Below are positions 42,002 to 60,078 of a DNA stretch of 64,000 bases, in pieces. The notes under the pieces are model-generated. The model made no database searches and was not told where the DNA came from. It was given only the letters and a program-made list of their open reading frames with translations. Where the stretch lies: assembly GCA_028821475.1 (NCBI GenBank), contig JAPPGB010000171.1:12727-76726 (forward strand). The letters are read 5' to 3'. The translations under genes were made by a program, and so were the position numbers. The first letter of the stretch is position 1, and each line of letters begins with the position of its first letter. Source of the DNA: Spirochaetaceae bacterium (GTDB lineage: Bacteria > Spirochaetota > Spirochaetia > SZUA-6 > Bin103).

Positions 42002-43207
42002 TCAGTCGGCGATCACCGCTGGCGCCAAGTCTCCGATCGACGCCCCCAGGCGATCGGCGTTGCCGTGGCCGTTCGACTTCTCCGCCGGTCGTTGCGCCGT
42101 GGCCGGCAGCGGCACGTCGTACTGGTAGCCGGGCTCGACCTGCTGCCGGCGCCAAGTGGCGCGCATCTCCCGCCAGGCGGCGAATACCCACTTGGGCTCG
42201 GGGGTGTCCGCCGCGATCGCCTTGCCGAGGCGGCGCAGGTTGTAGCACGGCACGCCGGCGTACATGTGATGCTCCATGTGCCAGTTCATGCGCCAGTACA
42301 GGAACGTGCTGAGCGGGTCGAGCTTGATGGAGCGCACGCACTTGCGGAAGTCGGCCACGTTGGTGCGCAGCCCGCAATGCATCGGCAGGTGGGTGACGTA
42401 GCGCCAGAAGTTGGCGATGAATATCGGCAGGCTGACCAGCACCGGCAGCAGCCAGAGCTGAAACACGATTGCCGCGGCCAGCACCAGGGCGTGGAACAGC
42501 AGGATCAGGCGCGCCCAGCGTACCGACTTGCGCAGCTCCTCGGGGTGGCCGGCGTAGACCGCTGTCAGCCACTCCGCCTTGGGGGATGCGAGGCCGCCCC
42601 GATCGCCGGTACCCGTTCTGTTCAGTGCCCTCTTGACGGTGTACCCGATGACCGGAATCAACCCGGCGGTATGGGGGCCGCCGGTGAAGTTGAGGGTAAG
42701 GATCTGCACCAGGAAGAAGAAGCGGAACGTGGGCGAGCGCGGCAACACCTCCTCGCGGTCGCCGTTCGGGTGCAGCGTGTAGCGATGGTGATAGGTGTGG
42801 CTCATCGCGTAGTCGTAGAAGTTGAACCAGGTGAGCAGCGCGTAGAAGCGCTTGAAGAACTGGTTGAGCGCCTTGGTACGAAACACGGTGCCGTGGGTCA
42901 GCTCGTGGTTGGCCGCCGCGTAGATGCTGCCCATGGTGCCGTGCAGGAACAGCGCCGCCGCGAACCCGACCCACATCTGCCGGGCAAACAGGTGCCAGGT
43001 CAGCAGTCCGCTCGCCGCCAGCAGGACCAGCGGCCCCACCGACTGGAACCAGCCCTTCAGGTCGCTGCGCTGCATCAGGCCGCGCAGCACGCGTGGATCG
43101 ATCGGACTCCGGTACCACCGGACTCGCATCGTACGCCGAACCTCGTCCAGTGGTGGGTAGGCCGCGGGAGTGCCGTTTGCCGGCGCCGTGGTTGCCGCCT
43201 GTGCCAT
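42002..43207 (-). CDS. membrane fatty-acid desaturase family protein (di-iron, three His boxes)
   Basis: His boxes HELTHG, HTYHH and HMEHH. Multiple TM segments. Confidence 0.85.
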   Translation of the reverse strand: MAQAATTAPANGTPAAYPPLDEVRRTMRVRWYRSPIDPRVLRGLMQRSDLKGWFQSVGPLVLLAASGLLTWHLFARQMWVGFAAALFLHGTMGSIYAAANHELTHGTVFRTKALNQFFKRFYALLTWFNFYDYAMSHTYHHRYTLHPNGDREEVLPRSPTFRFFFLVQILTLNFTGGPHTAGLIPVIGYTVKRALNRTGTGDRGGLASPKAEWLTAVYAGHPEELRKSVRWARLILLFHALVLAAAIVFQLWLLPVLVSLPIFIANFWRYVTHLPMHCGLRTNVADFRKCVRSIKLDPLSTFLYWRMNWHMEHHMYAGVPCYNLRRLGKAIAADTPEPKWVFAAWREMRATWRRQQVEPGYQYDVPLPATAQRPAEKSNGHGNADRLGASIGDLAPAVIAD

Positions 43208-43318
43208 GTTGAGTCACCTCCTCGTTGCAGGGCAGCATATCACGATCCGCCGGATTGTCACCGGCCCCGCGCAGCCGTTCCATGACGTTCGGGAGCCCGA
43301 TCCGTCAGGCCCGCAGCC

Positions 43319-43337
43319 GGGTGGCCAGTTTGGCCAC
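43319..43337. promoter_or_regulatory. perfect 8-bp inverted repeat GGTGGCCA-gt-TTGGCCACC in the 268-nt divergent region between the desaturase-like gene and GH32
   Basis: Palindrome read directly. It lies ~140 nt upstream of the GH32-2 start and ~110 nt upstream of the desaturase-like gene's start. Confidence 0.5.
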
Positions 43338-43475
43338 CGTGCGTTGACGCGGCGCGCGGACAGTGCGAATCTGCCCAGTGTGCTGAAGCGCGAGTTACGA
43401 ATAAACCACCGCTACCTGATCCTTCCGGTGCGCCGGCGAACAGCCGCCGAGGCAAGAGGTCAGTGGGGCGGAAAC

Positions 43476-44999
43476 ATGCGCCTGTGCCGCGACGGGCAGG
43501 TGCTGCGACACTTCGACATCGACTTGGCGGACGGCAGCGGCGACTACCAGGTGTTCAGCGACCTGCAGCCGTTTCTCGGGCAGCGGCTGCAGGTGGAGTT
43601 CGAGGGTACCGGAGCGGCGTCGCTCGACGGCCTGCGGCTGGCGGCCGAGCCGGTGCCGCCGGAGTCGCTGTACCGAGAGCGGCTGCGGCCGCAGTTCCAC
43701 TTCTCTTCGCGGAGAGGCTGGAACAACGACCCCAACGGCCTGTTCTGCTTCGGCGGCGAGTATCACCTGCTGTATCAGCACAATCCGTACAGCGTCGAAT
43801 GGGGCAACCTGCACTGGGGGCACGCGGTGAGCCGCGACCTGGTGCACTGGAGCGAGCGGCCTGTGGCCCTGTACCCGGATGCGCTGGGCGCCATGTCCAC
43901 CGGCAGCACCGTGGTGGATTACGCCAACACCTCCGGCCTGGGCAGCCCGGGCGCACCGGCGATCGTCGCCGTCTACACCGCCGGCCACGCTTCCTGGACG
44001 CCGGGCTTCGTGCAGTGCCTGGCCATTTCCACCGACGGCGGAACTACCTGGAGCAAGTACGACGGCAACCCGGTGATCGAGCACATCGTGCACCGCAATC
44101 GCGATCCCAAGGTGATCTGGCATCCCGAGACCGGGCGCTGGGTGATGGTGCTGTACATGGACCGTTTCGACTATGCGATCTTCACCTCGCCCAATCTGCT
44201 GCAGTGGGAGCGCGTCAGCGACCTGGAGCTGCCGCGTTGCACCGAGTGCCCGGAGCTGTTTCCACTCGCCCTGGACGGGGAGCAGAAGTGGGTGTTCTGG
44301 GGAGCCAACACGACCTACCTGGTGGGCTCCTTCGACGGGCGCACCTTCCACCCGGAGCAGGGGCCGCGCAAGCTGCAGCCGGACGGCAACGGCTATGCCG
44401 CGCAGACCTGGAGCGACGTGCCGCCGGAGGATGGCCGCCGGATCCAGATGGCGTGGCTGCGGCAGCAGATGCCGGGCATGCCGTGGGGCCAGTGCATGAC
44501 CGTTGCGCACAGCCTGGGGCTGCAGCGCCGCGGCGATCAGGTGGTGCTCACCGCGGACCCGGTGCGGGAGTTGGAGAGCTTGCGGGCGGAGCGCTGGCAG
44601 GTTGCCGATACCGAGATTGCGCCGGCGCGGCCGCTGGAGGCCGAGGTGAGCGGCGAGCTGCTGGACGTGGAGGCGGAGTTGGAACTGGGCTCTTCCGACT
44701 GCGTGGGCGTGGTGGTGCGCGGCGTACCGGTGTTCTACGATCGGCGCCTCGGTGCGCTGTGCTGCGGCGAGTACACGGTGCCGATGCCGGAGCCGGACGG
44801 GCCGTTCGCCTGGCGCATCCTGGCCGACCGCGCATCGTTGGAGCTGTACGCGGACGGCGGCGCGGTGAACATCGCGGCCGGCGTCATCCTGCCCGAGTGG
44901 GAGCGCTCGGTGCGGCTGGTGGCGGCCGGAGGCAGCGCGGTGGCGAAGCGGGTGACGGTGGCGCGGTTGCGGTCGGCGTGGCCGTTGGTGGAGGTTTGA
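43476..44999 (+). CDS. glycoside hydrolase family 32 (canonical motifs)
   Basis: WNNDPNGLFCFGGEYHLLYQHNP, RDPKVIWH and ECPELF catalytic triad boxes. The start was trimmed to MRLCRDG because the upstream gene ends at 43207. Confidence 0.85.
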   Translation: MRLCRDGQVLRHFDIDLADGSGDYQVFSDLQPFLGQRLQVEFEGTGAASLDGLRLAAEPVPPESLYRERLRPQFHFSSRRGWNNDPNGLFCFGGEYHLLYQHNPYSVEWGNLHWGHAVSRDLVHWSERPVALYPDALGAMSTGSTVVDYANTSGLGSPGAPAIVAVYTAGHASWTPGFVQCLAISTDGGTTWSKYDGNPVIEHIVHRNRDPKVIWHPETGRWVMVLYMDRFDYAIFTSPNLLQWERVSDLELPRCTECPELFPLALDGEQKWVFWGANTTYLVGSFDGRTFHPEQGPRKLQPDGNGYAAQTWSDVPPEDGRRIQMAWLRQQMPGMPWGQCMTVAHSLGLQRRGDQVVLTADPVRELESLRAERWQVADTEIAPARPLEAEVSGELLDVEAELELGSSDCVGVVVRGVPVFYDRRLGALCCGEYTVPMPEPDGPFAWRILADRASLELYADGGAVNIAAGVILPEWERSVRLVAAGGSAVAKRVTVARLRSAWPLVEV

Positions 45000-45004
45000 G
45001 AACG

Positions 45005-45832
45005 ATGTCCGAGCTTGATGTAACTCCGATTGCGGGCGCCCTGGGAGCCGAGGTGCGCGGCGTGGACCTCGGCGGCTCGCTGGACGCCGCCACCGTGGCC
45101 GAGATCCGGCAGGCGCTCCTGGACCACTTGGTGATTTCTTTCCCGGCGCAGGAGTTGACGCCGAAGTCGCTGCTCGCGTTCGCACGCTGCCTCGGCGATC
45201 CGCTCGAGTATCCGCAGTTGCAGGGCCTGCCGGAGGCGCCGCTGGTGACCGCGGTTACCAAGCTGGAGCACGAGCGGGTGGCCTTCGGCGGCGTGTGGCA
45301 CACCGACACCAGCTACCTGGAGCAACCGCCGCTCGGCAGCCTGCTGTACGCGGTGGAGCTGCCGCCATACGGCGGCGACACCCTGTTCGCCAACCAGTAC
45401 CTGGCCTACGAGCGCCTGTCCGAGGGGTTGCGCGAGGCCCTTGCCGGCATGACCGCCATCTACACGTCGACCAAGCCGGCGGTGGCGGCCACGCGCGAGG
45501 ACCGCTTGCGCGAGCGCGGCGTGCAGGCCAAGGTGCTCACCAGCGAACACCCGGTGGTGCGCACCCACCCGGAGACGGGGCGCAAGGCGCTGTACGTCAA
45601 CTGCGGGCACACGTCGCACTTCAAGGGCTGGAGCGAGGCGGAGAGCCAGCCGCTGCTGGAGTACCTGTTTCAGCACCAGGTGCAGCCGCAGTTCACCTGC
45701 CGCCTGCGCTGGCAGCCCGGCACCCTGGCGATCTGGGACAACCGCTGCACCCAGCACCTGCCGATCAACGACTACGACGGCTTCCGCCGCGTCATGCACC
45801 GCGTCACCCTGGCCGGCGACCAGCCGGCGTAA
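45005..45832 (+). CDS. TauD/TfdA family Fe(II)/2-oxoglutarate-dependent dioxygenase
   Basis: WHTDTSYLEQPP (HxD) and C-terminal ...QHLPINDYDGFRRVMHRVTL resemble taurine dioxygenase / alkylsulfatase AtsK-type enzymes. Confidence 0.85.
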   Translation: MSELDVTPIAGALGAEVRGVDLGGSLDAATVAEIRQALLDHLVISFPAQELTPKSLLAFARCLGDPLEYPQLQGLPEAPLVTAVTKLEHERVAFGGVWHTDTSYLEQPPLGSLLYAVELPPYGGDTLFANQYLAYERLSEGLREALAGMTAIYTSTKPAVAATREDRLRERGVQAKVLTSEHPVVRTHPETGRKALYVNCGHTSHFKGWSEAESQPLLEYLFQHQVQPQFTCRLRWQPGTLAIWDNRCTQHLPINDYDGFRRVMHRVTLAGDQPA

Positions 45833-45856
45833 CCTCGCGGCGGCGAGCCGCCGGTG

Positions 45857-46189
45857 TCACTCCTTGAGAGCGAGGTGGACGATGACCGGGACGGCCACAC
45901 CCGCGGGCAGCGAGCCGGTCAGGCGCAGCCAGCCGCCGAAGTGGCGGACGCGTGCGAAGGTAGTCGGCCCCGGCGTGCTCGGGAGCGCGATCTCGGTTCC
46001 CTCGTCGGTCCAGTGGATGCCGTCGGGAGCGATCTGCACACGGGCGGCGGTGCCGGCAGGCAGTTCGCCGTCGATCAGCCGGATGAAGAAGATCGCCTCG
46101 CGTGCCCAGGCGGACTCGTACGGCTCGGTGGCGTACTCGCCCTCCCAGGTGGTGCCCAACTCGATAGTCGCGGTGTGACTCTGTCTCAC
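45857..46189 (-). CDS. hypothetical protein (110 aa), last gene of GH32-3 operon
   Basis: ORF abutting the upstream gene (10-nt gap); no recognisable motif. Confidence 0.5.
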   Translation of the reverse strand: MRQSHTATIELGTTWEGEYATEPYESAWAREAIFFIRLIDGELPAGTAARVQIAPDGIHWTDEGTEIALPSTPGPTTFARVRHFGGWLRLTGSLPAGVAVPVIVHLALKE

Positions 46190-46199
46190 TGATTATTCC

Positions 46200-47054
46200 T
46201 TACGGGGCGGTGGAGACCGCAACGCTGTCCAGGTAGAGGAACGCGCGCGTGGCGGCGTCGCTCTCCACGAAGAATACGACGTTCAGCATCGACCACAGGT
46301 TGGGCATCGCCGGCAGCCGCATCGGTTCGATGCCGGCCACGTCCAGGTCGCGCTCGTTGCAGCGGAAGCCCAGAAACCGCATGCCGGCCAAGTCGAAGTC
46401 CAGCCGCAGGTAGTACCAGTTGTGCTTGGTGGCGATCTCGTTGTAGCAGAGGCGCTGGCCGCCACCGGGAATGTCGACCCAGTTGCTCGACTTCAAGTGG
46501 AAGTGCGACCAGGTCTTGCCGTGGGTACCGATGTCGACCAGCGGCTCGCGCTCGTTCTTGTACTGCCAGCGCTCCACGCGCCGGCCCTCGAAGGCGTTGA
46601 GGTAGCGGATGTGCGGCATCACCCGCAACGGCTCGGCCGCCTGGCCGTCGGCGTGCTGCAGGTCGAGCACCACCCCGAACGCGCGCACCGCCGTCTCGCC
46701 GAGTTCGAGTTCGCTCGCCTCCGGCTTGAAGGTCACGATCGCCTCCACCCGCACTGGTCCGGCGGTGCGAAACGTGGAGCGCTTGATCGCGGTGCAGAAG
46801 GTGCCCGGCTTGGCGCGCGTGGCCAGCTTCAGCGCGTAGGCGCCGCCGATCGCCCCGGAGGTGCCGGCGTCCCACATGGTCAGGTTGCTCAACATCGGCG
46901 GGCGCATGTCCATGTACTCCGGCAGCATCGCGTCGATCCGGTCCTCGTAGTTGCCGATCAGCGCCCCCCAGCCGTTCACCCCGTCGTTGAAGTCGTCAAA
47001 GAACAGCAACCGCTGCAACGGTTCGAACAACTGCAGCATCGTGTATGCCTGCAT
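46200..47054 (-). CDS. hypothetical protein (284 aa), possibly lectin/jelly-roll-like, in GH32-3 operon
   Basis: Long ORF (MQAYTMLQLFEPLQRLLFFDDFNDGVNGWG...NWYYLRLDFDLAG...) 78 nt downstream of GH32-3; no recognisable catalytic motif. Confidence 0.55.
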   Translation of the reverse strand: MQAYTMLQLFEPLQRLLFFDDFNDGVNGWGALIGNYEDRIDAMLPEYMDMRPPMLSNLTMWDAGTSGAIGGAYALKLATRAKPGTFCTAIKRSTFRTAGPVRVEAIVTFKPEASELELGETAVRAFGVVLDLQHADGQAAEPLRVMPHIRYLNAFEGRRVERWQYKNEREPLVDIGTHGKTWSHFHLKSSNWVDIPGGGQRLCYNEIATKHNWYYLRLDFDLAGMRFLGFRCNERDLDVAGIEPMRLPAMPNLWSMLNVVFFVESDAATRAFLYLDSVAVSTAP

Positions 47055-47132
47055 GCCCCGGACTATCGCACACCGCCCCGGTGCCTACAACGTGGGTGGG
47101 AACGCTTGCAGTCCCCGAACAGGGAGCCGCGA

Positions 47133-49798: not shown

Positions 49799-49874
49799 GA
49801 CGTGAGCCGCGGCTTTGCCACCCTGGACGATCCGCTGCGCGGTCGCCACCGGCTCGTCTCGGTCGGGAGCCGAT

Positions 49875-50579: not shown

Positions 50580-50676
50580 GCTCCCGGTTGCCGGCACGCG
50601 CAAGCCCGGCCCGGCGGGTCCCGGACGCGCCGCCGATCGGGGTATGCATGGCATGGCGGCGGGAGTATCGTGCGGC

Positions 50677-51567: not shown

Positions 51568-51572
51568 CTGGC

Positions 51573-52184: not shown

Positions 52185-52239
52185 TGCGTTCCGCGACACA
52201 CACCACGGTTCTCGTGCTCTACGCCACGGGCGTGATGTA

Positions 52240-52455: not shown

Positions 52456-52666
52456 GACGGTAGTCCTCCTTCACCAGGGTGGTTGAATCTGTGCTGGCAG
52501 TGTTTTCCGACTCGTCGTGCAGGTGCTGGGTGAACTCCTGGCCGGGCTCGTGCAGGCCGTGGTTGGGAGGTGAGCCGGCGTGCGCCCATGTCGGGGTGCA
52601 CGATGCGCCAGTTGCTGCCTCTGCCCATGCGGAACGCGTGGCCCGCGAACAGGTCAACGAACTGCA

Positions 52667-53494: not shown

Positions 53495-53834
53495 CGTCCA
53501 GCCACTATGCGGACCGAGCGAGCCGGGCGTCAATCCGCCGCGGCAGGCACCAGCAGGCACCCGAGCGATGGCGATGATCTCCGGGCTTGAGGCAGCGACC
53601 GGGACCTTGCTCACGGTGCTCTCAGACTGCGATCTCAAGTAGCCACGGAGAAACAACCCGCTCAGCTCAGGCGCGGTTGCCGCGGGCGAGGCGCGACTAG
53701 TGGGTGGGCGACCTGGATGGCTCAGTGGCAACCCCAGGTGGAGCAGGCCACCGGCTTGCCGGGCGAAGGCCGGCATGTCGCACGACCTCCACCCGGCTCT
53801 CGTTCAAACCGGCCCGCCGACCGGCGATGGGCTG

Positions 53835-55568
53835 CTAGAATCCCATCTGTGACTTCAGGTTCTGGTCGATCCAGATATCGGCCTCGAACCGGCCACTGGT
53901 GCGGTCCGCGGTGTGCAGCTCTCCGTAGTAGTTCCTGACCCACGGCCACCAGTACTGCAGCTCGCGCCCGGTGCCGATGGGAATATAGGCCACCGAGTCC
54001 AGGGCCATCATGCTGAGATCCCGGATTATGCTGTTGCGCTCATCGGTGTCGAGCGCGGCCACCGCGTCGTGCCACATCTGGTTGAACTGGGGGTTGTCCC
54101 ACTTGGTCCAGTTCCAGTTGTGCCCGCCGAGGTACATCTGCATGGCGTCCAGGGCGTCGGCCTGCCCCATGCCGCGGTAACCGACCTGGTAGTCGTTGTC
54201 CTCTCCGGCCCAGAACATCCGTCCCATGATGGCGTTTTCGACAACGTCGATATTGACCTCGACACCGATCTGCTCCCAGTAACCCTTGGCAGCAACCAGA
54301 ACCTCCGAATTCGATCCCTGAGCGACGCCGCTCAAGGTCATGCCGTCCGGGTAGCCCTGCTCGGCCAGGATTTGCTTGGCCCGCTCGGGGTCGAAGTCCC
54401 ACAGTTCCCTGGTCTGCGCCGGGAGGTCCTCCAGCGCAACGTGCGTATAGGGAATGATGGAATGCACCGGGTATGAGTGGTAGTCGCCCCCCTCGCCAAA
54501 GACCACCGCCTTGTTGATGGCCGGGATGTCCAGCGCCATCATCAGAGCGCGCCGAATCTCCTTGTTGTTCAGGGGTGCCACGTCGGTCCTCAGCGCGAGC
54601 TGATACCCCCAGTCCCACGGATTGCTGACCTTGTTGAGATCCGGATTCGTCTTGCTCAGCGTCTCTTCGAACTTCGACGACATGCGATAGAACATATCGA
54701 GCTTGCCGGTTCGCAGCGCCGCCAATTGCGTGGACTGGTCGTCGATGGTGGCGTACACGAGCCGGTCGATGAACGGCACTTCGTACTCGGTGCCGTTGAT
54801 GATCGTCGTATCCCAGTAGTCAGGATTCCTGACGTACGATATGTGCGATCCCTCGACACGTTCTTCGAAGATAAAGGGCCCGGTTCCCACCATGTTTTCC
54901 CAGTCGCCTATGCCGGCCTCGACGGTCTCGGGCGCGTATATCGCGTTCATCCAGCCGGCGCCGATGACGTACGGCCAAGTGCTGCTGAACTGGCTCAACT
55001 CGAACACCACCGAGTCGCCCGAGGCGTACACCTCACGCACCCAGCCGCCGTTGTCAGTCCACTGGATCAGCGCAACTCCGGAGTCGAGGATGCGCGTGAA
55101 GCTGGCCACGATGTCGTCAGCAGTAAGCTCCCTGCTTTCCATGACGTGTTCCTTGCCCATCGCCTGCCAGAAGACGCCCGGCCGGATATTGAAGGTGAGC
55201 CGGTTGGGCTCGGCCGTCCAACTCTCGGCGAGGTTCCCGGTCATCACCCACTCCGGGCACACCACCCAGGTGTTGGACCACTCGCCGCTGCCGCGCGGTC
55301 CGACTCGCCAGTAGTCCACACGCGTCAGGTGCTCCAGGACCGGCCCGGCCGCATGCATGGCGGGGCTCCTGCTCACCGTGGCGTCCGCATTGACCGGCGT
55401 CGAGTCGATGCGTCGCAAGGTGAGCGTGCCACCGTATTGGGGCTCCTCCGTGTCCGCCGACGCCGCCGGCTCCGCGGTCGCTGCGTCCTCCTGGCCGGCA
55501 GCGCCAAGGGGCAGGCCAAGGACGGCGAACGCGACTCCCAAAAGGGCTACGATGTGTAGCTTCTTCAT
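53835..55568 (-). CDS. ABC transporter substrate-binding protein, family 5 (DppA/OppA-like), third cassette
   Basis: MKKLHIVALLGVAFAVLGLPLGAAG signal peptide, ~577 aa with the SBP-5 fold. Confidence 0.85.
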   Translation of the reverse strand: MKKLHIVALLGVAFAVLGLPLGAAGQEDAATAEPAASADTEEPQYGGTLTLRRIDSTPVNADATVSRSPAMHAAGPVLEHLTRVDYWRVGPRGSGEWSNTWVVCPEWVMTGNLAESWTAEPNRLTFNIRPGVFWQAMGKEHVMESRELTADDIVASFTRILDSGVALIQWTDNGGWVREVYASGDSVVFELSQFSSTWPYVIGAGWMNAIYAPETVEAGIGDWENMVGTGPFIFEERVEGSHISYVRNPDYWDTTIINGTEYEVPFIDRLVYATIDDQSTQLAALRTGKLDMFYRMSSKFEETLSKTNPDLNKVSNPWDWGYQLALRTDVAPLNNKEIRRALMMALDIPAINKAVVFGEGGDYHSYPVHSIIPYTHVALEDLPAQTRELWDFDPERAKQILAEQGYPDGMTLSGVAQGSNSEVLVAAKGYWEQIGVEVNIDVVENAIMGRMFWAGEDNDYQVGYRGMGQADALDAMQMYLGGHNWNWTKWDNPQFNQMWHDAVAALDTDERNSIIRDLSMMALDSVAYIPIGTGRELQYWWPWVRNYYGELHTADRTSGRFEADIWIDQNLKSQMGF

Positions 55569-55632
55569 CTCTCTCAATCCTCCTCGAATTGAATCCCTTG
55601 AATTGATACGCGACAACGTCGCGCTGATCCGC

Positions 55633-56598
55633 TCAAATACTTCGCACCTGTTCATCCTCGGTCGCACGCACAGTCGCGGCCTTCCGGTCCGACATCATTC
55701 GGAAGCTTCCGACGCCGCCCTTGAGCCTCGGATCCAACAGGTCTCTGACGGCGTCGCCGAACATGCTGATGCCGTAGACCGCAACGCTCAGCGCAAGTCC
55801 GGGCCATATTGCCATCCATGGTGCCAGGAACATGTTGTCGCGGCCCGGCCCGCTGAGCATGCCTCCCCAGCTCGGAGCAGGCGGCGGAACGCCGAATCCC
55901 AGGAAGCTCAGAGCCGCTTCGGATATGATGACTCCCGGCAACACCACCGCGTAACCGGTGATGATGAACGGCATCACGTTCGGCAGAAGATGCCGCGTCA
56001 GCACCTTGCGAAACGGGCATCCGACCGCCACTGCCGCTTGTATGTACACGTTTTCCTTGTAGCTCAGGATGATGCCGCGCATGTTTCTGGATCCTGCGAC
56101 CCCGGTCAGCACGCCAAGCGACACAATCAGCGTCAGCATGCCCGGCCCCGCAAGATCGGCGATCGTGAGCATGATGGGGAGCAGCGGCAGAGACATTACC
56201 GTGTCGACAAACCTCTGCAGTATCAGGTCGAAGGTGCGGCCGATATAGCCGCTCACCATGCCGACCACCGTGCCGATGCCCACGCTCACGGCGGCGCCGC
56301 CCAATCCCACGATCATCGAAATGCGCGCGCCGTAGATGACGCGGCTGAGCATGTCTCTTCCCAGGTTGTCGGTACCGAGCAGGAACGCGGCCGAGGGCGG
56401 TTCGAGCGTGTGCGCCATGTGCAGCTCGTTCATCCCGTACGGCGCCAGGAGATCGGCAAACACGCCGGTAAAAAGCATCAGCAGCGTGATGGCTCCGCCA
56501 AATGCGCCGAGCGGCTTCTCCTTCACGAGCCTGATGAGAAACTCCAGGAATCGAGACTGCCGTGGCGCGGTACCGTTTGCTGCGCGTGGCGGCTTCAT
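55633..56598 (-). CDS. ABC transporter permease DppC-like
   Basis: MKPPRAANG...LGTDNLGRDMLSRVIYGARISMIVGL...VRDLLDPRL. Start ATG at ~56598. Confidence 0.85.
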   Translation of the reverse strand: MKPPRAANGTAPRQSRFLEFLIRLVKEKPLGAFGGAITLLMLFTGVFADLLAPYGMNELHMAHTLEPPSAAFLLGTDNLGRDMLSRVIYGARISMIVGLGGAAVSVGIGTVVGMVSGYIGRTFDLILQRFVDTVMSLPLLPIMLTIADLAGPGMLTLIVSLGVLTGVAGSRNMRGIILSYKENVYIQAAVAVGCPFRKVLTRHLLPNVMPFIITGYAVVLPGVIISEAALSFLGFGVPPPAPSWGGMLSGPGRDNMFLAPWMAIWPGLALSVAVYGISMFGDAVRDLLDPRLKGGVGSFRMMSDRKAATVRATEDEQVRSI

Positions 56599-57596
56599 TG
56601 ATACCGAATCCGGGGATCGACCACACCGTAGGCCAGGTCGGCGGCCACGTTGGCGAGCACCACCGCGATCGAGCTGATCAGCAACAGTGCGCTGACCACC
56701 GTGTAGTCTCTCTGCAAGATGGCAGACAGGAGGAGCTGCCCCATCCCCGGCAGTTGGAAGATACTCTCCACGATGACCGCGCCCCCGATCAGCAGCGGTA
56801 GTTGAATGCCGAGTGCCGTGACGATCGGAATGAGCGTGTTCTTGAACGCATGCCGCACCAGCACCGCCCGCTCCCTGAGGCCCTTCGACCAGGCCGTCCT
56901 GATGTAGTCCTGCCGCAGTACCTCCAGCATCCAGGTGCGCGTCGATCGCATCGTGCCGCCGGAGGAAGCCAGACCCATGATGAAGGCCGGCAACAGGAAC
57001 ATCCCGATATTGCCGAGCGGATCCTCCTTGAACCGGATGAGGAATATGGGCGGCGACCAACCCCACCACAGGGCCGGGAACACCATCACCATGGTCGCCA
57101 CCCAGAAAGCCGGGACGGCGAGCCAGAGAATGGCGAAGCTGCGGGTTGCGTAGTCGCCCAACGTGTCCTGCCTCACCGCCGCGTAGATGCCTATGGGAAC
57201 CGCCACCGCGTACGTGATTGCCAGGCTCATCAAACTGAGCTGAATCGTTACCGGCAATCGCGGTGCGATCAGCTCGACCACCGGCTTGCGGCTTCGCAGG
57301 GAGAGCCCGAGATGCGCCTGCAGGATTCCTTGCACCTCGCCGTCCGCGCGGGGCGCAATGCCCAGCCAGCGCGCGTACTGGGTGAGTATGGGGACGTCGA
57401 GGCCGAGCTCCCGCTCGATGAGCGCTCTGCTTTCCTCGACCGCGTCCGCGCCGCCGCCGCCCTCCGCGGCCAACTCTATGACGATGGCGTCGACGATATC
57501 TCCCGGCATGAGCCGGATCAGCAGGAAGATGACGATCGTCGTGAGCGCCAGCGTGGGGACTGCCAGCACCAGCCGCCGGATCGCATAGGATCCCAT
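56595..57596 (-). CDS. ABC transporter permease DppB-like
   Basis: MGSYAIRRLVLAVPTLALTTIVIFLLIRLMPGD...YIRTAWSKGLRERAVLVRHAFKN. Confidence 0.85.
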   Translation of the reverse strand: MGSYAIRRLVLAVPTLALTTIVIFLLIRLMPGDIVDAIVIELAAEGGGGADAVEESRALIERELGLDVPILTQYARWLGIAPRADGEVQGILQAHLGLSLRSRKPVVELIAPRLPVTIQLSLMSLAITYAVAVPIGIYAAVRQDTLGDYATRSFAILWLAVPAFWVATMVMVFPALWWGWSPPIFLIRFKEDPLGNIGMFLLPAFIMGLASSGGTMRSTRTWMLEVLRQDYIRTAWSKGLRERAVLVRHAFKNTLIPIVTALGIQLPLLIGGAVIVESIFQLPGMGQLLLSAILQRDYTVVSALLLISSIAVVLANVAADLAYGVVDPRIRYQ

Positions 57597-57606
57597 CTGC
57601 TCTTCC

Positions 57607-59109
57607 TCAACCGCGGGCCAGCCGGAAGGCGTGCTCCTCGGCGCGCATCGTGGCCTCGCCGTTGCCGTCGCCGGTGCGCAGTTGCTCAACGTTGCGCACT
57701 TCCAGGCGGGCGGCACCTTCCCACTCACGCGTGGGCAGCCGGTCGGAGCTGCTCAGCCGTTCCTGCGCGGCTGCGATCGCCGCCCCGTACTGCGGCAGCC
57801 ACTGCCGCTGCGCCAGCAGCATGTCGTCGACGAGCTGCCACACCTCGGGCGGCGAAGCCACGGCGCCGACCAGCGGATCGAGCAGCATCGCCTGCCGCAG
57901 CAGGGCGTCGTCGCCGGCTACCGCGGCGTGCACGGCCAGCCGCTGCACCGAGATGCTCGCGTTGCACACGGCCGCACAGCCGAGCGGCAGGTCGCCGACC
58001 AGCGGGATGCCTATGCCGTTGCCGTCCACGTAGCCCGGCACCTCGACCACGGCATCGTGTGGCAGGTTGGCGATGGCGCCGTTGTTCTTGACGTTGAAGT
58101 GGCCGCGGTAGGTGCGCCCGGTCTCCAGACCCTCGACGATGTAGGAGCCGTGCTCGGAGGAACGCTCGGCGGGCGTGAACTGCATCGGCGGCTCCGCCAT
58201 CCAGCGCGGAAAATCCTCCTCGAACCAGTTGCGCTTCTCGGTGCACACGCGCAGGTAGCCGCCGGTTTCGCCGTGGATCCAGGTATCGAGGCTGATCCAG
58301 TCGCGGATCTCGCCCGGCCGCTTGCGGTACCACGGGACGTACTCGCTCAGGTGGCCATTGGACTCGGTGGAGTAGTAGCCGAAGCGGCGCAGCATGTCGA
58401 TGCGCACCTTCTCCGTCTCCCGGTACTTGGGATGGCGCTCGTAGGCGGCCAGCAGCTCGCCGGTCATGTCCTTGCCGTGGTGGCGGAGCTGCACGTACCA
58501 GGTCTGGTGATTGATGCCGGCGGCGATGATGTCCAGCTCCTGCCGCGGCACGCCGAGCACCTCGGCGATCTGCCGATGCCCGCCCTGCACGCCATGGCAC
58601 AAGCCGATCGTCTCCACCCCGCCGTGGTCGTTGGCGGCCCAGGTGAGCATCGCCATCGGGTTGGCATAGTTGAACAGCCGGCAGCCGGGCTCCGCCACCT
58701 CGCGGATGTCGCGGCAGATGCCCAGGATCACCGGGATGCCGCGCTGGCCGTACATCACGCCGCCGGCCGACAGCGTATCGCCGACGCATTGGTCGATGCC
58801 GTAGCGCAGCGGCACGTCGATGTCGGTAGCGAACGCCTCGATGCCGCCGACGCGCACCGTGCAGAACACGTAGCGAGCGCCCGCTATGGCCTCGCGGCGA
58901 TCGGTGGTTGCGCTCAGTTTCACCCGGTCAAGGCCGTTGGCGCGAATGTCCCGCTCCGCCAACTGGCGGATCATGTCCAGGTTCTGCTCGCTGATGTCGG
59001 ACAATGCCACTTCAAGCGCGCCGAATTCCGGGACGGTGAGAAGATCGCCGAGCAGCTTGCGGGTGAAGCCGATACTGCCGGCGCCGATGAACGCGATCTT
59101 GAATGGCAT
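57607..59109 (-). CDS. glycoside hydrolase family 4 (NAD+/Mn2+-dependent alpha-glucosidase/galactosidase-like) with ~50-aa C-terminal extension
   Basis: MPFKIAFIGAGSIGFTRKLL Rossmann N-terminus and a GLCHGV catalytic Cys-His motif. 500 aa. Confidence 0.85.
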   Translation of the reverse strand: MPFKIAFIGAGSIGFTRKLLGDLLTVPEFGALEVALSDISEQNLDMIRQLAERDIRANGLDRVKLSATTDRREAIAGARYVFCTVRVGGIEAFATDIDVPLRYGIDQCVGDTLSAGGVMYGQRGIPVILGICRDIREVAEPGCRLFNYANPMAMLTWAANDHGGVETIGLCHGVQGGHRQIAEVLGVPRQELDIIAAGINHQTWYVQLRHHGKDMTGELLAAYERHPKYRETEKVRIDMLRRFGYYSTESNGHLSEYVPWYRKRPGEIRDWISLDTWIHGETGGYLRVCTEKRNWFEEDFPRWMAEPPMQFTPAERSSEHGSYIVEGLETGRTYRGHFNVKNNGAIANLPHDAVVEVPGYVDGNGIGIPLVGDLPLGCAAVCNASISVQRLAVHAAVAGDDALLRQAMLLDPLVGAVASPPEVWQLVDDMLLAQRQWLPQYGAAIAAAQERLSSSDRLPTREWEGAARLEVRNVEQLRTGDGNGEATMRAEEHAFRLARG

Positions 59110-59161
59110 GCTGTGCTCCCGCGCGTACCGTAGGCGATGCCGCCGTCCGGGACAAGACGGT

Positions 59162-60007
59162 TCAGATCACGTCCCGCTGCGTCTCGGTCACCTTGCCGGG
59201 AAACGTCGAGCCCCGCACCCACATGATCTGCCGGGCCTGCGCGGCGCGCTCCGGACTCACCCACTCCGCTTGCGCACTCAGGTAGTGGGACACGAAGCTG
59301 CGCCGGAAGCGGCCGCTGTGATTGTCGGTGCTCTTGTGCAGCAGATGGCTGTGAAACCAGATCACCGCCCCCGGTTCCACCTCCAGGGCGACGCCGTCTT
59401 CGTTGCGTGCGTTGCGCGCCAGCTTGAACTCGCTCTGTTGCGAACCCTCGAGTTCGTCGTGCTCCACCACCGGCCCGAGGTGGCTGCCGGGAATGACGTA
59501 CAGGCACCCGTTGCCGCGGTCGGCGGCATCGACGGCGGTCCAGGTTCCCACGGTGGTTTCGGTGACGAAGCGCTGGCGGAAGTAGAACTTGTCCTGGTGC
59601 CACGGAAAGCCCAGCCCGATCTCGGGCGCCTTCCAGATGAACAGGTTGTTGATGCCGAGAATGTCCGGTCCGAGCAGGTCGACGACGGGATCGGTCAGCC
59701 GGCGATCGCGCACGCGCTCCAGGAACTCGGGGACATGGCAGCTGGGAAAGTGCAGCTTGTGCATGGCATGGATTCCGGCTCGCTGCTCCCTGCCGTCACG
59801 GACCAGTGCGTTGCGATCGACATGTTCTGAGGGAAATGGGCGTGTCCCGGCCACGACCTCCTCCGCGGCAATGTTCAGGACCTCATTCTCCTTGCGGGTA
59901 AAGACGTGCTCGCGAACGAAGAACCCGTCGCGCTGCCATCGCTCGCGCTCGGCGCGGGTCAGTCGATAGGACCGGTCGGTCGCAGCTTCGGATTTGGCGC
60001 TATACAT
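59162..60007 (-). CDS. PhyH family Fe(II)/2OG oxygenase, copy 3
   Basis: ...FPWHQDKFYFRQ... and ...YVIPGSHLGPVVEHDE...WFHSHLLHKSTDN (HxD...H). Start taken at MYSAK. Confidence 0.75.
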   Translation of the reverse strand: MYSAKSEAATDRSYRLTRAERERWQRDGFFVREHVFTRKENEVLNIAAEEVVAGTRPFPSEHVDRNALVRDGREQRAGIHAMHKLHFPSCHVPEFLERVRDRRLTDPVVDLLGPDILGINNLFIWKAPEIGLGFPWHQDKFYFRQRFVTETTVGTWTAVDAADRGNGCLYVIPGSHLGPVVEHDELEGSQQSEFKLARNARNEDGVALEVEPGAVIWFHSHLLHKSTDNHSGRFRRSFVSHYLSAQAEWVSPERAAQARQIMWVRGSTFPGKVTETQRDVI

Positions 60008-60008
60008 A

Positions 60009-60027
60009 CTATATTGACTGATATAGC
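60009..60027. promoter_or_regulatory. inverted repeat CTATAT-tgactg-ATATAG in the 71-nt divergent region between PhyH-3 and the IclR regulator gene
   Basis: Palindrome read directly. The segment is AT-rich relative to the genome. Coordinates are approximate to +/-1. Confidence 0.5.
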
Positions 60028-60078
60028 AGAACCGTGCTAGTGTCAAGACCTGCGGATGGCAACCATCCATAACTCACC

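What the first reader, a model, noticed from the sequence alone, without database searches (positions are those of the whole stretch)
42002..60070. Glycan-processing island unusually rich in Fe(II)/2-oxoglutarate dioxygenases (3x PhyH, 1x TauD/AtsK-like) together with GH32 x2, GH4, Gfo/Idh/MocA, cupin and ATPase-less Opp-like importers
Within ~18 kb there are three PhyH-family oxygenases (50677-51567, 52667-53494, 59162-60007). A TauD/TfdA-family oxygenase (45005-45832) sits immediately after a GH32. A third GH32 is fused in an operon with a Gfo/Idh/MocA oxidoreductase. The island also carries a GH4, a membrane di-iron desaturase-like protein, a cupin, two hypothetical proteins, a FlaR-like NTPase, an IclR regulator and two peptide/oligosaccharide-type ABC importers. 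2OG oxygenases are not standard components of fructan or alpha-glycoside utilisation loci. The TauD family includes oxidative sulfate-ester and sulfonate-cleaving enzymes (TauD, AtsK). Together this suggests a pathway for oxidative de-modification (for example desulfation, dealkylation or hydroxylation) of decorated oligosaccharides or glycosides before hydrolysis. I do not recognise this combination as a described polysaccharide utilisation system.
Basis: partly seen in the sequence, partly recalled or inferred. Interest (0 to 1): 0.7.

Follow-up and report, generated by a model that had tools for sequence, protein, structure and literature searches.

The report
Sugar-splitting operon with embedded iron oxygenases
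A probably sponge-associated spirochaete keeps seven genes together: three sugar-splitting enzymes, two iron/2-oxoglutarate oxygenases, a dehydrogenase and a cupin. This suggests an untested oxidative step in breaking down small imported glycosides, while the rest of the 18-kb "island" is later insertions.

Summary
The gene content is as described: two GH32, one GH4, Gfo/Idh/MocA, a cupin, a TauD-family oxygenase and three PhyH-family oxygenases. There are also a FA-desaturase-like protein, DUF6772, a P-loop protein, IclR and SBP5-type importers. No ABC ATPase occurs anywhere in the 64 kb.

The 18 kb is not one unit. Five genomes of the same Spirochaetia clade share only a core: GH4 / PhyH2-cupin-Gfo-GH32b, with convergent GH32a-TauD. 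L002 has lost cupin and Gfo. In the most compact genome the core is one tight operon with overlapping stop and start codons.

These parts are lineage-specific insertions:
- DUF6772-hyp110
- PhyH1 with the P-loop gene
- one transporter
- PhyH3 and IclR
- the desaturase

Outside the clade, the closest TauD and GH32b relatives have no such neighbours.

PhyH2 and PhyH1 carry the rare HygX-type iron site (H-x-G/A/V ... E-x3-H). HygX is the top structural match for PhyH2. PhyH2 relatives in other phyla sit directly after NAD-dependent sugar dehydrogenases.

All enzymes lack signal peptides, so the substrates are small imported glycosides, not polysaccharides. GH4 plus GH32 is the classical raffinose-type pair.

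A functional link between oxygenases and glycosidases is supported. The desulfation reading is weak, and the chemistry is untested.

The parts
57607..59109 (-). GH4 family glycosidase, MelA-type alpha-galactosidase-like. Core gene, first gene of the ancestral operon.
   Evidence: Pfam Glyco_hydro_4 and 4C. The NCBIfam alpha-galactosidase subfamily scores 574 bits against a cut-off of 486. It is 62% identical to the MelA of the R. leguminosarum melA-agp operon. It is 91-96% identical in L002, L166, L170 and L171.
52667..53494 (-). PhyH2: HygX-type Fe(II)/2OG oxygenase. Core gene.
   Evidence: Pfam PhyH 46 bits. The best PDB sequence hit is HygX, with LHGGN aligned to LHGGN. In 120 homologues H111-G112-[A/G]113 and E203-x3-H207 are invariant. 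For the AF2 model the top 15 Foldseek PDB hits are all HygX chains. It is present in all 5 clade loci. Homologues are about 265-275 aa, so the start is at 53494, not 53776.
52499..52667 (-). Frameshifted remnant of a second cupin gene (cupinA), immediately after PhyH2.
   Evidence: tblastn of the intact cupinA of L166 and L171 matches its first ~56 codons in two frames, at 73-91% identity.
49875..50561 (-). CupinB (metal-binding cupin). Core gene in 4 of 5 genomes.
   Evidence: Pfam Cupin_2 47 bits. Motifs HTHDLGHE and PGE..YHTVRN were read in the sequence. It is 77-86% identical in L166, L170 and L171, with the start at 50561. It is absent from L002.
48728..49798 (-). Gfo/Idh/MocA NAD(P)-dependent oxidoreductase, translationally coupled to GH32b.
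   Evidence: Pfam GFO_IDH_MocA 74 bits. ATGA overlap with the GH32b start. Best PDB hits are DgpA (C-glycoside 3-dehydrogenase), inositol dehydrogenases and GFOR, matching the N-terminal domain only. It is 77-86% identical in L166, L170 and L171.
47133..48731 (-). GH32b, invertase / sucrose-6-phosphate-hydrolase-like beta-fructofuranosidase. Core gene.
   Evidence: Pfam GH32 N and C domains. The best PDB hit is a sucrose-6-P hydrolase, 164 bits. D57 (WINDPNG), D179 (HWD[AG] instead of RDP) and E236 (WELP) are invariant in 95 sequences. It has no signal peptide.
43476..44999 (+). GH32a, exo-inulinase-like beta-fructofuranosidase with an extra N-terminal segment. Core gene, co-transcribed with TauD. 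The real start may lie upstream, up to 43170.
   Evidence: Pfam GH32N 207 bits. The best PDB hit is an exo-inulinase, 201 bits. WNNDPNG, RDPKV and ECPE were read in the sequence. It is 85-96% identical in the four other clade loci.
45005..45832 (+). TauD/TfdA-family Fe(II)/2OG dioxygenase. Core gene, always directly downstream of GH32a in the clade.
   Evidence: Pfam TauD 212 bits. The NCBIfam taurine dioxygenase model scores 245 bits against a cut-off of 313. Best PDB hits are RdpA, PlaO1, TauD, Rv3406 and AtsK. H99, D101, H251, T126, R262 and R266 are kept, but taurine-binding N95 and S158 are not. It is 83-97% identical in the clade.
45857..47039 (-). DUF6772 (46200-47039) plus the 110-aa hypothetical protein (45857-46189). 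This two-gene module is inserted between GH32b and TauD, and is not part of the core.
50677..52184 (+). PhyH1 (50677-51567, HygX-type variant) plus a P-loop NTPase/kinase-like protein (51573-52184). Inserted module.
   Evidence: Pfam PhyH 34 bits. The best PDB hit is HygX. The family has P-H124-x-[G/V/A] and E216-x3-H220. The P-loop protein gives weak FlaR/kinase hits. The module is present in the window, L002 and L171 only.
53835..57728 (-). SBP5 binding protein (53835-55568) and two Opp-type permeases without an ATPase. Inserted between GH4 and PhyH2 in this genome only.
   Evidence: Pfam. Block 53544-57610 is absent from L002, L166, L170 and L171. The binding protein has a signal peptide.
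59162..60861 (.). PhyH3 (59162-60007/60070, minus strand; canonical HxD PhyH oxygenase) and the divergent IclR regulator (60079-60861, plus strand). Accessory, seen only in this genome.
   Evidence: Pfam PhyH 108 bits, and IclR. Best PDB hits are PHYH, EvdO2 and PHYHD1. PhyH3 is 24% identical (59 bits) to a Poribacteria PhyH enzyme shown to demethylate 2'-O-methyl nucleosides. There is no homology to L002 beyond 59173.
37673..43207 (-). FA_desaturase-like membrane di-iron protein (42002-43207), followed by two Opp-type permeases and an SBP5 protein (37673-41919). Accessory unit shared only with L002.
   Evidence: Pfam. It is 96-99% identical in L002 and absent next to the core in L166, L170 and L171. 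AgpB and AgpC are 35-38% identical to the permeases, and AgpA is 28% identical to the binding protein.

Best explanation
The window comes from a high-GC Spirochaetia genome, probably a sponge symbiont. The real unit inside the finding is a clade-specific, cytoplasmic catabolic locus for small imported glycosides.

Its ancestral form is one operon, GH4 - PhyH2 - cupin(s) - Gfo/Idh/MocA - GH32b, with a convergent pair GH32a - TauD-like.

Inferred mechanism:
1. SBP5-type ABC importers bring in oligosaccharides or glycosides. The importers use ATPases encoded elsewhere in the genome.
2. GH4 removes an alpha-galactosyl-type residue, and the two GH32 enzymes remove beta-fructofuranosyl residues. This is the raffinose/sucrose/fructo-oligosaccharide type of chemistry.
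3. An oxidative branch handles a part of the substrate that hydrolases cannot. That part could be an O-alkyl or anionic substituent, or the released sugar or aglycone. The branch consists of the HygX-type oxygenase PhyH2, the TauD-like oxygenase, the cupin(s) and the NAD(P) oxidoreductase.

What is shown: family assignments, intact catalytic residues, operon junctions, conservation of the core, and the mosaic nature of the rest.

What is inferred: the substrate class, the order of steps, and what the oxygenases oxidise.

The other genes of the 18 kb are later insertions. They may extend substrate range but are not needed to explain the core. They are DUF6772-hyp110, PhyH1 with the P-loop gene, one transporter, PhyH3-IclR, and the desaturase with its transporter.
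For: Core conservation:
- The core is conserved in five genomes at 76-96% protein identity, despite at least six independent insertions or deletions at its junctions.
- In L170 the six-gene strand has overlaps or gaps of 50 nt or less, and GH32a-TauD abuts its 3' end.
- In the window, Gfo and GH32b share an ATGA overlap, and GH32a and TauD are 5 nt apart.

Enzymes look active:
- Catalytic residues are intact in GH32a and GH32b, in the TauD-like protein, and in PhyH2.
- GH4 is above NCBIfam's alpha-galactosidase cut-off. It is 62% identical to the MelA of a rhizobial operon, where the next gene is annotated as an SBP5-type periplasmic alpha-galactoside-binding protein.
- GH32a resembles exo-inulinases, and GH32b resembles invertases and sucrose-6-P hydrolases.

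Localisation:
- No enzyme has a signal peptide, while all binding proteins do.

Oxygenases and sugars:
- PhyH2 matches HygX, an oxygenase acting on a glycoside, in motif and in fold.
- In four unrelated genomes a PhyH2 homologue directly follows an NAD-dependent dehydrogenase: Gfo/Idh/MocA twice, Ldh_2 once, and an SDR epimerase once.
- PhyH-family enzymes O-demethylate ribose in nucleosides (PMC12709175).
- A TauD-family enzyme cleaves a sulfosugar, followed by an NAD(P)H reductase (PMC10507154).

Local enrichment of these oxygenases over background is shown.
Against: - All evidence is genomic context within one clade. At 76-96% identity some synteny is expected by descent alone.
- Outside the clade, the nearest GH32b relatives (55% identity or less) and TauD relatives (70% or less) lack these neighbours. 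There is therefore no cross-phylum co-conservation of the whole set.
- L002 has lost cupin and Gfo but keeps the rest, so the oxidative branch is at least partly dispensable.
- The close TauD homologues sit in organic-acid-type contexts.
- Similarity of PhyH2 to HygX is low (about 20% identity, 27-30 bits, TM about 0.6), and HygX Lys137 is not conserved.
- No known raffinose-type pathway needs an oxygenase.
- No expression or activity data exist.
Confidence: 0.5

Rival explanations
1. Neighbours without a shared pathway. The region is a variable catabolic 'parking lot'. An ordinary raffinose/sucrose set (GH4, two GH32 enzymes, Opp-like importers) lies next to unrelated small-molecule oxygenases. 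In this reading the TauD-like enzyme acts on a sulfonate or carboxylate, and the PhyH enzymes act on, for example, methylated nucleosides or other host-derived compounds. The genes stay linked in the clade only by descent.
For: - Gene content varies widely between close relatives.
- PIN toxin, DUF4143 ATPase and transposon-like AAA_22/AAA_25 genes lie nearby or inside the locus.
- TauD homologues elsewhere sit with Bug/TctC, TRAP and CoA-transferase genes.
- A nucleoside hydrolase lies at 36751-37659, and PhyH-family nucleoside demethylases are known.
- L002 lost cupin and Gfo without losing the glycosidases.
Against: - Stop and start codons overlap across PhyH2-cupin and cupin-Gfo-GH32b in L166 and L170.
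- GH32a-TauD has a 4-8 nt spacing in three of the four genomes where it was measured (window, L170, L171) and 81 nt in L166.
- The core stayed together through several independent insertions.
- PhyH2 relatives in other phyla also sit in sugar-dehydrogenase contexts.
Confidence: 0.27
2. The TauD-like enzyme, and perhaps the PhyH enzymes, oxidatively remove sulfate esters or sulfonates from decorated glycans or glycosides, in the manner of AtsK, Rv3406 or SqoD. The GH32 and GH4 enzymes then hydrolyse the product.
For: - AtsK and Rv3406 are among the best PDB hits, at 185-188 bits.
- The Arg that binds the anionic group in TauD is conserved.
- Sulfatase genes lie next to the core in L166 and L170, and in the Poribacteria PhyH/DUF6772 operon. 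An arylsulfotransferase is inserted in L171.
- A sulfosugar-cleaving member of the TauD family exists.
Against: - RdpA (ether cleavage next to a carboxylate) and TauD itself score as high or higher than the sulfatases.
- The closest homologues are in carboxylate-type contexts and have no glycosidases nearby.
- SqoD is only 18% identical to TauD, whereas this protein is about 42% identical, so it is not an SqoD orthologue.
- No sulfoquinovosidase or SquF-like reductase is present.
- Everything is cytoplasmic, and GH32 enzymes are fructoside-specific. Sulfated fructosides are not a known substrate class.
Confidence: 0.1
3. Biosynthesis rather than catabolism. The HygX-like oxygenases build an orthoester or otherwise oxidised glycoside natural product.
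For: HygX, EvdO2 and AviO1 are biosynthetic enzymes and are the closest solved relatives of PhyH1, PhyH2 and PhyH3.
Against: - No glycosyltransferase, NDP-sugar enzyme, PKS/NRPS or exporter is present.
- The neighbours are hydrolases, importers with binding proteins, and catabolic dehydrogenases.
- The PhyH2 family is large and spread over many uncultivated lineages.
Confidence: 0.03

Closest known systems
Alpha-galactoside / raffinose utilisation systems: the rhizobial melA-agp operon (example L174, R. leguminosarum plasmid CP007069) and the E. coli raf operon (own knowledge)
   Same: A GH4 MelA-type enzyme (62% identical) lies next to an Opp/Dpp-like importer of the SBP5 type, whose binding protein takes sugars instead of peptides. 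A GH32 invertase accompanies an alpha-galactosidase, as in raf (own knowledge).
   Different: - No ATPase and no AraC regulator are present here.
- The importer is not part of the conserved core.
- AgpA is only 28% identical to two of the binding proteins and does not match the one next to GH4.
- Those systems contain no 2OG oxygenase, cupin or Gfo gene.
HygX and the orthosomycin oxygenases (EvdO1/2, AviO1), PhyH-family Fe/2OG enzymes acting on oligosaccharide antibiotics
   Same: PhyH2 (and PhyH1) share the unusual H-x-G/A ... E-x3-H iron site, in which the carboxylate is relocated. HygX is the top hit by both sequence and fold. The HygX substrate is a glycoside.
   Different: - Identity is about 20%.
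- HygX Lys137 is replaced.
- The context here is catabolic (hydrolases, importers), not a biosynthetic cluster.
- Orthoester formation is not implied.
TauD / AtsK / Rv3406 / RdpA group of TauD-family dioxygenases, and the SqoD sulfoquinovose dioxygenase pathway (PMC10507154)
   Same: The fold family, the Fe and 2OG ligands, and the anion-binding Arg are shared. All these enzymes hydroxylate the carbon next to a leaving group. In the SqoD pathway a TauD-family enzyme acts on a sugar and is followed by an NAD(P)H oxidoreductase.
   Different: - The protein is below the TauD equivalog cut-off (245 against 313 bits).
- The taurine amine-binding residues are changed.
- It is not close to SqoD.
- No sulfoquinovosidase, SquF or TRAP transporter is present.
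- Its nearest homologues have no sugar genes nearby.
PHYHD1/FJS-type 2'-O-methyl-nucleoside demethylases (PMC12709175) and the unexplained PhyH expansion of Poribacteria (PMC3909097)
   Same: These are PhyH-family 2OG enzymes that remove an O-methyl group from a sugar ring, and one active enzyme is from Poribacteria. PhyH3 has the canonical HxD site and aligns full-length with that enzyme. PhyH2-like genes are common in Poribacteria.
   Different: PhyH3 is only 24% identical. PhyH1 and PhyH2 belong to a different subfamily (HxG/A). No activity is known for any of them.
Oxidative glycoside-processing pathways with Gfo/Idh/MocA enzymes (DgpA C-glycoside 3-dehydrogenase, glycoside 3-dehydrogenases, GFOR) and the rhizopine moc genes (MocA; MocD as a desaturase-like oxygenase is own knowledge; mocDEF in PMC10107442)
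   Same: A Gfo/Idh/MocA oxidoreductase sits in a glycoside operon, and its best PDB hit is DgpA. A FA_desaturase-like oxygenase lies next to a binding-protein importer, as in moc.
   Different: - Only the NAD-binding domain matches, at 56 bits or less.
- No sugar-isomerase-type lyase partner is in the core.
- No Rieske or reductase partner accompanies the desaturase.

Membership tests
GH32 beta-fructofuranosidases (GH32a, GH32b) | GH32 N-terminal five-bladed propeller and C-terminal beta-sandwich domains | tested here: met
   Pfam PF00251 scores 207 and 198 bits. PF08244 scores 25 and 86 bits. All are above the cut-offs.
GH32 beta-fructofuranosidases (GH32a, GH32b) | Catalytic triad: nucleophile Asp in W[MI]NDPNG, Asp of RDP, and acid/base Glu of the EC motif | tested here: met
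   GH32a has WNNDPNG, RDPKV and ECPE. GH32b has WINDPNG, HWDA (Asp kept, Arg replaced) and WELP. D57, D179 and E236 are conserved in 93-95 of 95 sequences.
GH32 beta-fructofuranosidases (GH32a, GH32b) | Hydrolysis of beta-fructofuranosides | not testable with these tools
   Enzyme assays are needed.
GH4 alpha-galactosidase (MelA type) | Score above the curated family cut-off, with both GH4 domains | tested here: met
   NCBIfam NF011657 scores 574 bits against a cut-off of 486. Pfam GH4 scores 154 bits and GH4C 171 bits. It is 62% identical to rhizobial MelA.
GH4 alpha-galactosidase (MelA type) | NAD+ and Mn2+ dependent redox-elimination mechanism; alpha-galactoside specificity | not tested
   Only the N-terminal GAGS motif was seen by eye. 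GH4 also contains alpha-glucosidases and glucuronidases.
Taurine dioxygenase TauD (equivalog) | Score above the curated equivalog cut-off | tested here: not met
   NF007104 scores 245 bits against a cut-off of 313.
Taurine dioxygenase TauD (equivalog) | Taurine-binding residues (H70, Y73, N95, S158, R270 of E. coli TauD; residue roles and the E. coli sequence are from own knowledge) | tested here: not met
   Y73 and R270 are kept. N95 is Gly, S158 is Pro, and the H70 loop is deleted.
TauD/TfdA family Fe(II)/2OG dioxygenases (PF02668) | Family domain, HxD...H iron ligands, and Thr/Arg for 2OG binding | tested here: met
   Pfam scores 212 bits. H99, D101, H251, T126 and R262 are present.
AtsK/Rv3406 sulfate-ester dioxygenases | Closer to AtsK/Rv3406 than to other subgroups; sulfate-ester cleavage | tested here: inconclusive
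   AtsK and Rv3406 score 185-188 bits. RdpA scores 224 bits, and PlaO1 and P. putida TauD score 216 bits. No subgroup is clearly nearest, and activity is not testable.
SqoD sulfoquinovose dioxygenase pathway | SqoD orthologue together with a SquF reductase and a sulfoquinovoside transporter or sulfoquinovosidase | tested here: not met
   SqoD is 18% identical to TauD, whereas this protein is about 42% identical. No aldo-keto-reductase-type SquF, GH31 or TRAP genes are in the locus.
PhyH family (PF05721) Fe(II)/2OG oxygenases | Family domain above the gathering score | tested here: met
   PhyH1 scores 34, PhyH2 46 and PhyH3 108 bits, against a cut-off of 22.
HygX-type PhyH oxygenases (relocated carboxylate) | H-x-G/A in place of HxD/E, plus E-x3-H supplying the carboxylate and the distal His | tested here: met
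   PhyH2 has H111-G-G and E203-x3-H207, and these columns are invariant in 120 homologues (A or G at position +2). PhyH1 has H124-V-V. Its family has G 29, V 8 and A 2 at position +2, together with E216-x3-H220. The motif definition is from PMC13374393.
HygX-type PhyH oxygenases (relocated carboxylate) | HygX is the nearest solved structure | tested here: met
   By phmmer the best hits are 4xc9 and 4xcb. By Foldseek the top 15 hits are HygX chains, E 9e-14, TM 0.55-0.63, on a model of mean pLDDT 77.
HygX-type PhyH oxygenases (relocated carboxylate) | Lys137 filling the vacated ligand position; orthoester-forming activity; biosynthetic cluster context | tested here: not met
   The aligned residue in PhyH2 is Val. 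The context is catabolic. Activity is not testable.
PHYHD1/FJS 2'-O-methyl-nucleoside demethylases | Close sequence relationship to an enzyme with shown activity | tested here: inconclusive
   PhyH3 is 24% identical (59 bits) over the full length of the active Poribacteria enzyme. Human PHYHD1 scores 58 bits.
melA-agp type alpha-galactoside uptake system | MelA plus an AgpA-like SBP5 protein, two permeases and an ATPase in one operon | tested here: inconclusive
   MelA is 62% identical and the permeases are 29-40% identical. AgpA is 28% identical to SBP_A and SBP_B, with no hit to SBP_C next to GH4. There is no ATPase in 64 kb.
Bacteroidota-type polysaccharide utilisation locus | SusC/SusD pair and secreted or periplasmic glycanases | tested here: not met
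   No TonB-dependent or SusD genes are present. All enzymes lack signal peptides.

The most novel reading that the evidence does not exclude
The HygX-type (H-x-G/A ... E-x3-H) branch of the PhyH family is a catabolic class of Fe(II)/2OG oxygenases that work directly on sugars or glycosides. This branch is abundant in sponge symbionts and almost absent from cultivated bacteria.

In the boldest form, these enzymes hydroxylate the anomeric or an O-alkyl carbon, so that a glycosidic or ether bond collapses. That would be an oxidative, LPMO-like cleavage of small soluble glycosides inside the cell. The Gfo oxidoreductase and the cupin would then process the lactone or keto-sugar formed.

This would also explain the decade-old puzzle of why PhyH is the most abundant protein family in Poribacteria.
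Probability: 0.15. Interest if true: 0.85.

Novelty: new variant of a known kind. Interest (0 to 1): 0.5.

Why it matters
Fe(II)/2OG oxygenases are not part of any textbook route for fructoside or alpha-galactoside use. Yet here one HygX-type enzyme and one TauD-type enzyme are built into such an operon and kept there. If they act on the sugar substrate, this would be a new accessory chemistry for glycoside catabolism, such as O-dealkylation, removal of an anionic group, or oxidative bond cleavage.

It would also give a concrete, testable function for the very large and unexplained PhyH expansion in sponge symbionts (Poribacteria and others; PMC3909097). The compact seven- to eight-gene form in L170 is small enough to express and test directly.

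Tried and rejected
- **Gene calling.** Longest-ORF and GC3-based calling in this 67% GC DNA produced shadow ORFs and fused frames. Coordinates were fixed with the collection's own gene calls and with homologue lengths.
- **Unbiased clustering of neighbours around DUF6772 in 80 loci.** This was noisy. It gave only Gfo, sulfatase and PhyH as recurrent neighbours.
- **Promoter and terminator scan of 41900-61000.** Counts were at the level of shuffled sequence.
- **Repeats and tRNAs at the insertion borders.** Nothing beyond chance was found, and there are no tRNA genes in the window. The mechanism of the insertions is therefore unknown.
- **Literature.** There are no papers on DUF6772 or 'ROBB21'.
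- **Look-up of the third GH32 (25046-26524).** It failed because the product as I delimited it is not on record.
- **SBP_C against plasmids.** Only generic 'ABC transporter substrate-binding protein' hits at 32% identity or less.
- **PhyH2 against 72,556 plasmids.** Three weak hits, so no annotated contexts were available.
- **PDB search for DUF6772 by sequence.** Nothing was found. The cupin gave only generic weak hits.
- **Considered and rejected.** A true taurine dioxygenase, an SqoD orthologue, a Bacteroidota-type PUL, and a biosynthetic cluster.

Full report
**Origin and gene map**

The window is part of a 201-kb metagenome scaffold (ENA ERZ23495471, ROBB21-1 scaffold_109). It is about 67% G+C. 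Over 12.6 kb it is 92.7% identical at the DNA level to a MAG deposited as 'Spirochaetia bacterium' (L002). The sample label probably refers to the sponge-microbiome MAG study of Robbins et al. 2021 (PMC8163846). That link is my inference, not a look-up.

The left end of the window carries housekeeping genes (rseP, cdsA, frr, tsf, rpsB), so this is chromosomal DNA. Because longest-ORF calling fails at this G+C, I fixed gene coordinates with the collection's own gene calls and with the lengths of homologues.

**The observation**

The coordinates are in the parts list. Two junctions were read directly:
- The Gfo stop codon overlaps the GH32b start as ATGA.
- TauD starts 5 nt after the GH32a stop, behind a GGAGG.

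There is no ABC ATPase in the whole 64 kb, although five importer permease sets are present.

The oxygenase density is local, not a genome-wide background effect. Profile scans find four PhyH/TauD ORFs between 45005 and 60070. They find none in window 1-42000 and none in about 290 kb of loci from related Spirochaetia MAGs.
- Only one importer lies inside the stated coordinates.
- The third GH32 is at 25046-26524.
- A decayed second cupin lies at 52499-52667.

**Is it one island?**

No. I fetched 80 genome loci around DUF6772 homologues and asked which island proteins recur. Only the 110-aa neighbour does, in 77 of 80 loci. Other Spirochaetia MAGs with 93-95% identical DUF6772 carry it among housekeeping genes. 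So DUF6772-hyp110 is a self-contained two-gene module.

Against L002, the window has two extra blocks: 48767-50434 (Gfo and cupin) and 53544-57610 (binding protein and two permeases). Homology to L002 ends at 59173.

Three further genomes of the same clade were found through PhyH2 and GH32b homologues (L166, L170, L171).

Shared by all five genomes, at 76-96% protein identity:
- GH4
- PhyH2
- GH32b
- the GH32a-TauD pair

CupinB and Gfo are present in four of the five.

L170 shows the compact form. GH4, PhyH2, a 47-codon cupin remnant, cupinB, Gfo and GH32b lie on one strand with overlaps or gaps of 50 nt or less. GH32a-TauD converges on its 3' end.

Everything else is variable:

| Element | Genomes carrying it |
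|---|---|
| DUF6772-hyp110 | window, L002 |
| PhyH1 with the P-loop gene | window, L002, L171 |
| Importer C | window only |
| PhyH3 and IclR | window only |
| Desaturase with importer B | window, L002 |
| Sulfatase | L166 |
| Dienelactone-hydrolase-like gene | L171 |
| 7.8-kb block with AAA_22/AAA_25/HTH genes and an arylsulfotransferase | L171 |

The core has therefore stayed together through at least six independent insertions or deletions at its junctions.

**Outside the clade**

The 80 closest metagenome homologues of the TauD-like protein (48-70% identity) have no GH32 or any other island gene within 8 kb. Their recurrent neighbours are Bug/TctC binding proteins, SDRs, family III CoA-transferases, TRAP permeases and aldehyde dehydrogenases.

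GH32b identity drops from 75% or more inside the clade to 55% or less outside it. A 54% relative has unrelated neighbours. The combination is therefore a clade-specific assembly, not a widely conserved system.

**The parts: glycosidases**

- GH32a has all three GH32 catalytic motifs and is nearest to exo-inulinases.
- GH32b belongs to a subfamily with HWD[AG] instead of RDP. Its Asp/Asp/Glu residues are conserved, and it is nearest to sucrose-6-phosphate hydrolases and invertases.
- GH4 passes NCBIfam's alpha-galactosidase cut-off.
- GH4 is also 62% identical to the MelA of a Rhizobium leguminosarum plasmid operon. There the next gene is annotated as a 'periplasmic alpha-galactoside-binding protein' of the SBP5 type, followed by two permeases and a 'peptide ABC transporter ATPase'.

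Opp-like importers next to GH4 thus have a known precedent in sugar uptake. An alpha-galactosidase with an invertase is the classical raffinose combination (own knowledge of the E. coli raf operon).

None of the enzymes has a signal peptide, while the binding proteins do. Substrates must be small enough to be imported, so this is not a polysaccharide system.

**The parts: oxygenases**

The TauD-like protein is nearest to RdpA, PlaO1, TauD, Rv3406 and AtsK. All of these hydroxylate a carbon next to a leaving group.
- It misses the TauD equivalog cut-off (245 against 313 bits).
- It keeps the iron and 2OG ligands and the Arg that binds the anionic group.
- It has lost the residues that hold the taurine amine. 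That comparison uses the E. coli sequence and residue roles from my own knowledge.

PhyH2 and PhyH1 are the more unusual proteins. Their best solved relative is HygX, the oxygenase that closes the orthoester of hygromycin B. HygX has an H-x-G ... E-x3-H iron site in which the carboxylate is relocated (PMC13374393).
- In PhyH2 the LHGGN motif aligns with the same motif of HygX.
- In 120 homologues (53-92% identity) the His, the following Gly, an Ala or Gly at the position of the usual Asp, and E203-x3-H207 are invariant or nearly so.
- The PhyH1 family shows P-H-x-[G/V/A] and E-x3-H.
- An AlphaFold model of PhyH2 (mean pLDDT 77) has HygX chains as its top 15 Foldseek hits in the PDB.
- The similarity is nevertheless low (about 20% identity), and HygX Lys137 is not conserved.

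PhyH3 has the canonical HxD site. It is a distant relative (24% identity, 59 bits) of a Poribacteria PhyH enzyme shown to demethylate 2'-O-methyl nucleosides (PMC12709175).

**Context of PhyH2 relatives elsewhere**

In four unrelated genomes the PhyH2 homologue directly follows an NAD-dependent dehydrogenase, in neighbourhoods rich in sugar genes:

| Genome | Locus | Gene directly upstream |
|---|---|---|
| Poribacteria | L082 | Gfo/Idh/MocA |
| Gemmatimonadaceae | L169 | Gfo/Idh/MocA |
| related Spirochaetia genome | L167 | Ldh_2 |
| unassigned | L168 | SDR epimerase |

In the clade itself PhyH2 follows GH4. GH4 is also an NAD-dependent sugar-oxidising enzyme (own knowledge of the GH4 mechanism).

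The PhyH2 family is common in metagenomes but nearly absent from 72,556 plasmids of cultivated bacteria. PhyH is known to be the most abundant Pfam family in Poribacteria, with unknown function (PMC3909097).

**Most likely mechanism**

The core is a cytoplasmic operon for small imported glycosides.
- Shown: families, intact active sites, operon junctions, and conservation of the core.
- Inferred: GH4 and the two GH32 enzymes remove alpha-galactosyl-type and beta-fructofuranosyl residues. The oxidative set (PhyH2, TauD-like, cupins, Gfo) deals with a substituent or residue that hydrolases cannot handle, or with the released sugar.

I put this at about 0.5. The main rival is mere neighbourhood without a shared pathway, at about 0.27. 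It is favoured by the fluid gene content, by the organic-acid contexts of TauD homologues, and by the loss of cupin and Gfo in L002. The tight coupling and persistent linkage argue against it. The specific desulfation idea gets about 0.1, and a biosynthetic role about 0.03.

**Comparison with known systems and novelty**

The glycosidase and importer part resembles melA-agp and raf systems. The oxygenases resemble HygX, the TauD/AtsK/RdpA group and, distantly, PHYHD1-type demethylases. I found no description of an operon that joins them. I rate it a new variant of a known kind, namely a glycoside utilisation locus with embedded 2OG oxygenases.

The most novel reading not excluded is that HygX-type PhyH enzymes are a catabolic class acting directly on glycosides, possibly cleaving glycosidic or ether bonds oxidatively. 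That would also explain the PhyH expansion in sponge symbionts (probability about 0.15).

**Limits**

- All evidence is comparative sequence analysis.
- The clade sample is five loci.
- The background for the density estimate is small and was chosen around DUF6772.
- The host and sample attribution is inferred.
- No expression or activity data exist.

Noticed in passing
[not shown]
   Followed up: partly
whole window (importers at 8005-11579, 32391-36763, 37673-41919, 53835-57728, 60918 to beyond 64000): The window has five binding-protein-dependent importers, four of the Opp/Dpp (SBP5) type and one of the sugar (CUT1-like) type. There is not one ABC ATPase gene in 64 kb. The ATPases must be encoded elsewhere and probably shared. 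Sharing is well known for CUT1 sugar importers but unusual for Opp-type systems (own knowledge).
   Followed up: partly
window 36751-37659: A RihC/RihA-like nucleoside hydrolase (Pfam 300 bits) sits between two SBP5 importers, 22 kb from PhyH3. PhyH-family enzymes and nucleoside hydrolases were recently linked in the catabolism of 2'-O-methyl nucleosides (PMC12709175). Whether these importers carry nucleosides was not tested.
   Followed up: no
window 52499-52667 (minus strand): A frameshifted remnant covers the first ~56 codons of a second cupin gene. That gene is intact directly after PhyH2 in L166 and L171, and is reduced to a 47-codon ORF in L170.
   Followed up: yes
window 22005-29261: A separate sugar locus lies here. 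It has two xylose-isomerase-like TIM barrel proteins (one with a UxuA-like part), an isocitrate/isopropylmalate-dehydrogenase-family protein, a third GH32 (25046-26524; KDA instead of RDP) and two MFS transporters.
   Followed up: no
window 8005-16642: This is a possible inositol or sugar-acid catabolic set. It has a CUT1-type importer without an ATPase, a sugar-isomerase-type TIM barrel, an SDR, a TPP enzyme (IolD-like by architecture) and a D-2-hydroxyacid dehydrogenase.
   Followed up: no
window 18278-19063 and 30071-32062; L002 3448-3954; L171 12009-15132: Mobile- or defence-type genes lie close to the sugar loci. They include an FRG-domain protein, a PIN-domain toxin next to a DUF4143/AAA_14 ATPase, another PIN gene directly upstream of GH4 in L002, and AAA_25/AAA_22/HTH genes inserted inside the core in L171. 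This fits the high turnover of gene content in this region.
   Followed up: no
L167 (a 6,155,028-bp contig, the same length as OZ253561, the genome of L003): A second oxygenase-rich sugar locus occurs in a related genome. It has an apiosidase-like GH, a 353-aa TauD-family protein, a PhyH-HEAT fusion, Ldh_2 overlapping a PhyH2 homologue (77% identical), two GH109-like Gfo proteins, an aldehyde dehydrogenase and an ADH. The pairing of 2OG oxygenases with glycan genes is therefore not unique to the window.
   Followed up: partly
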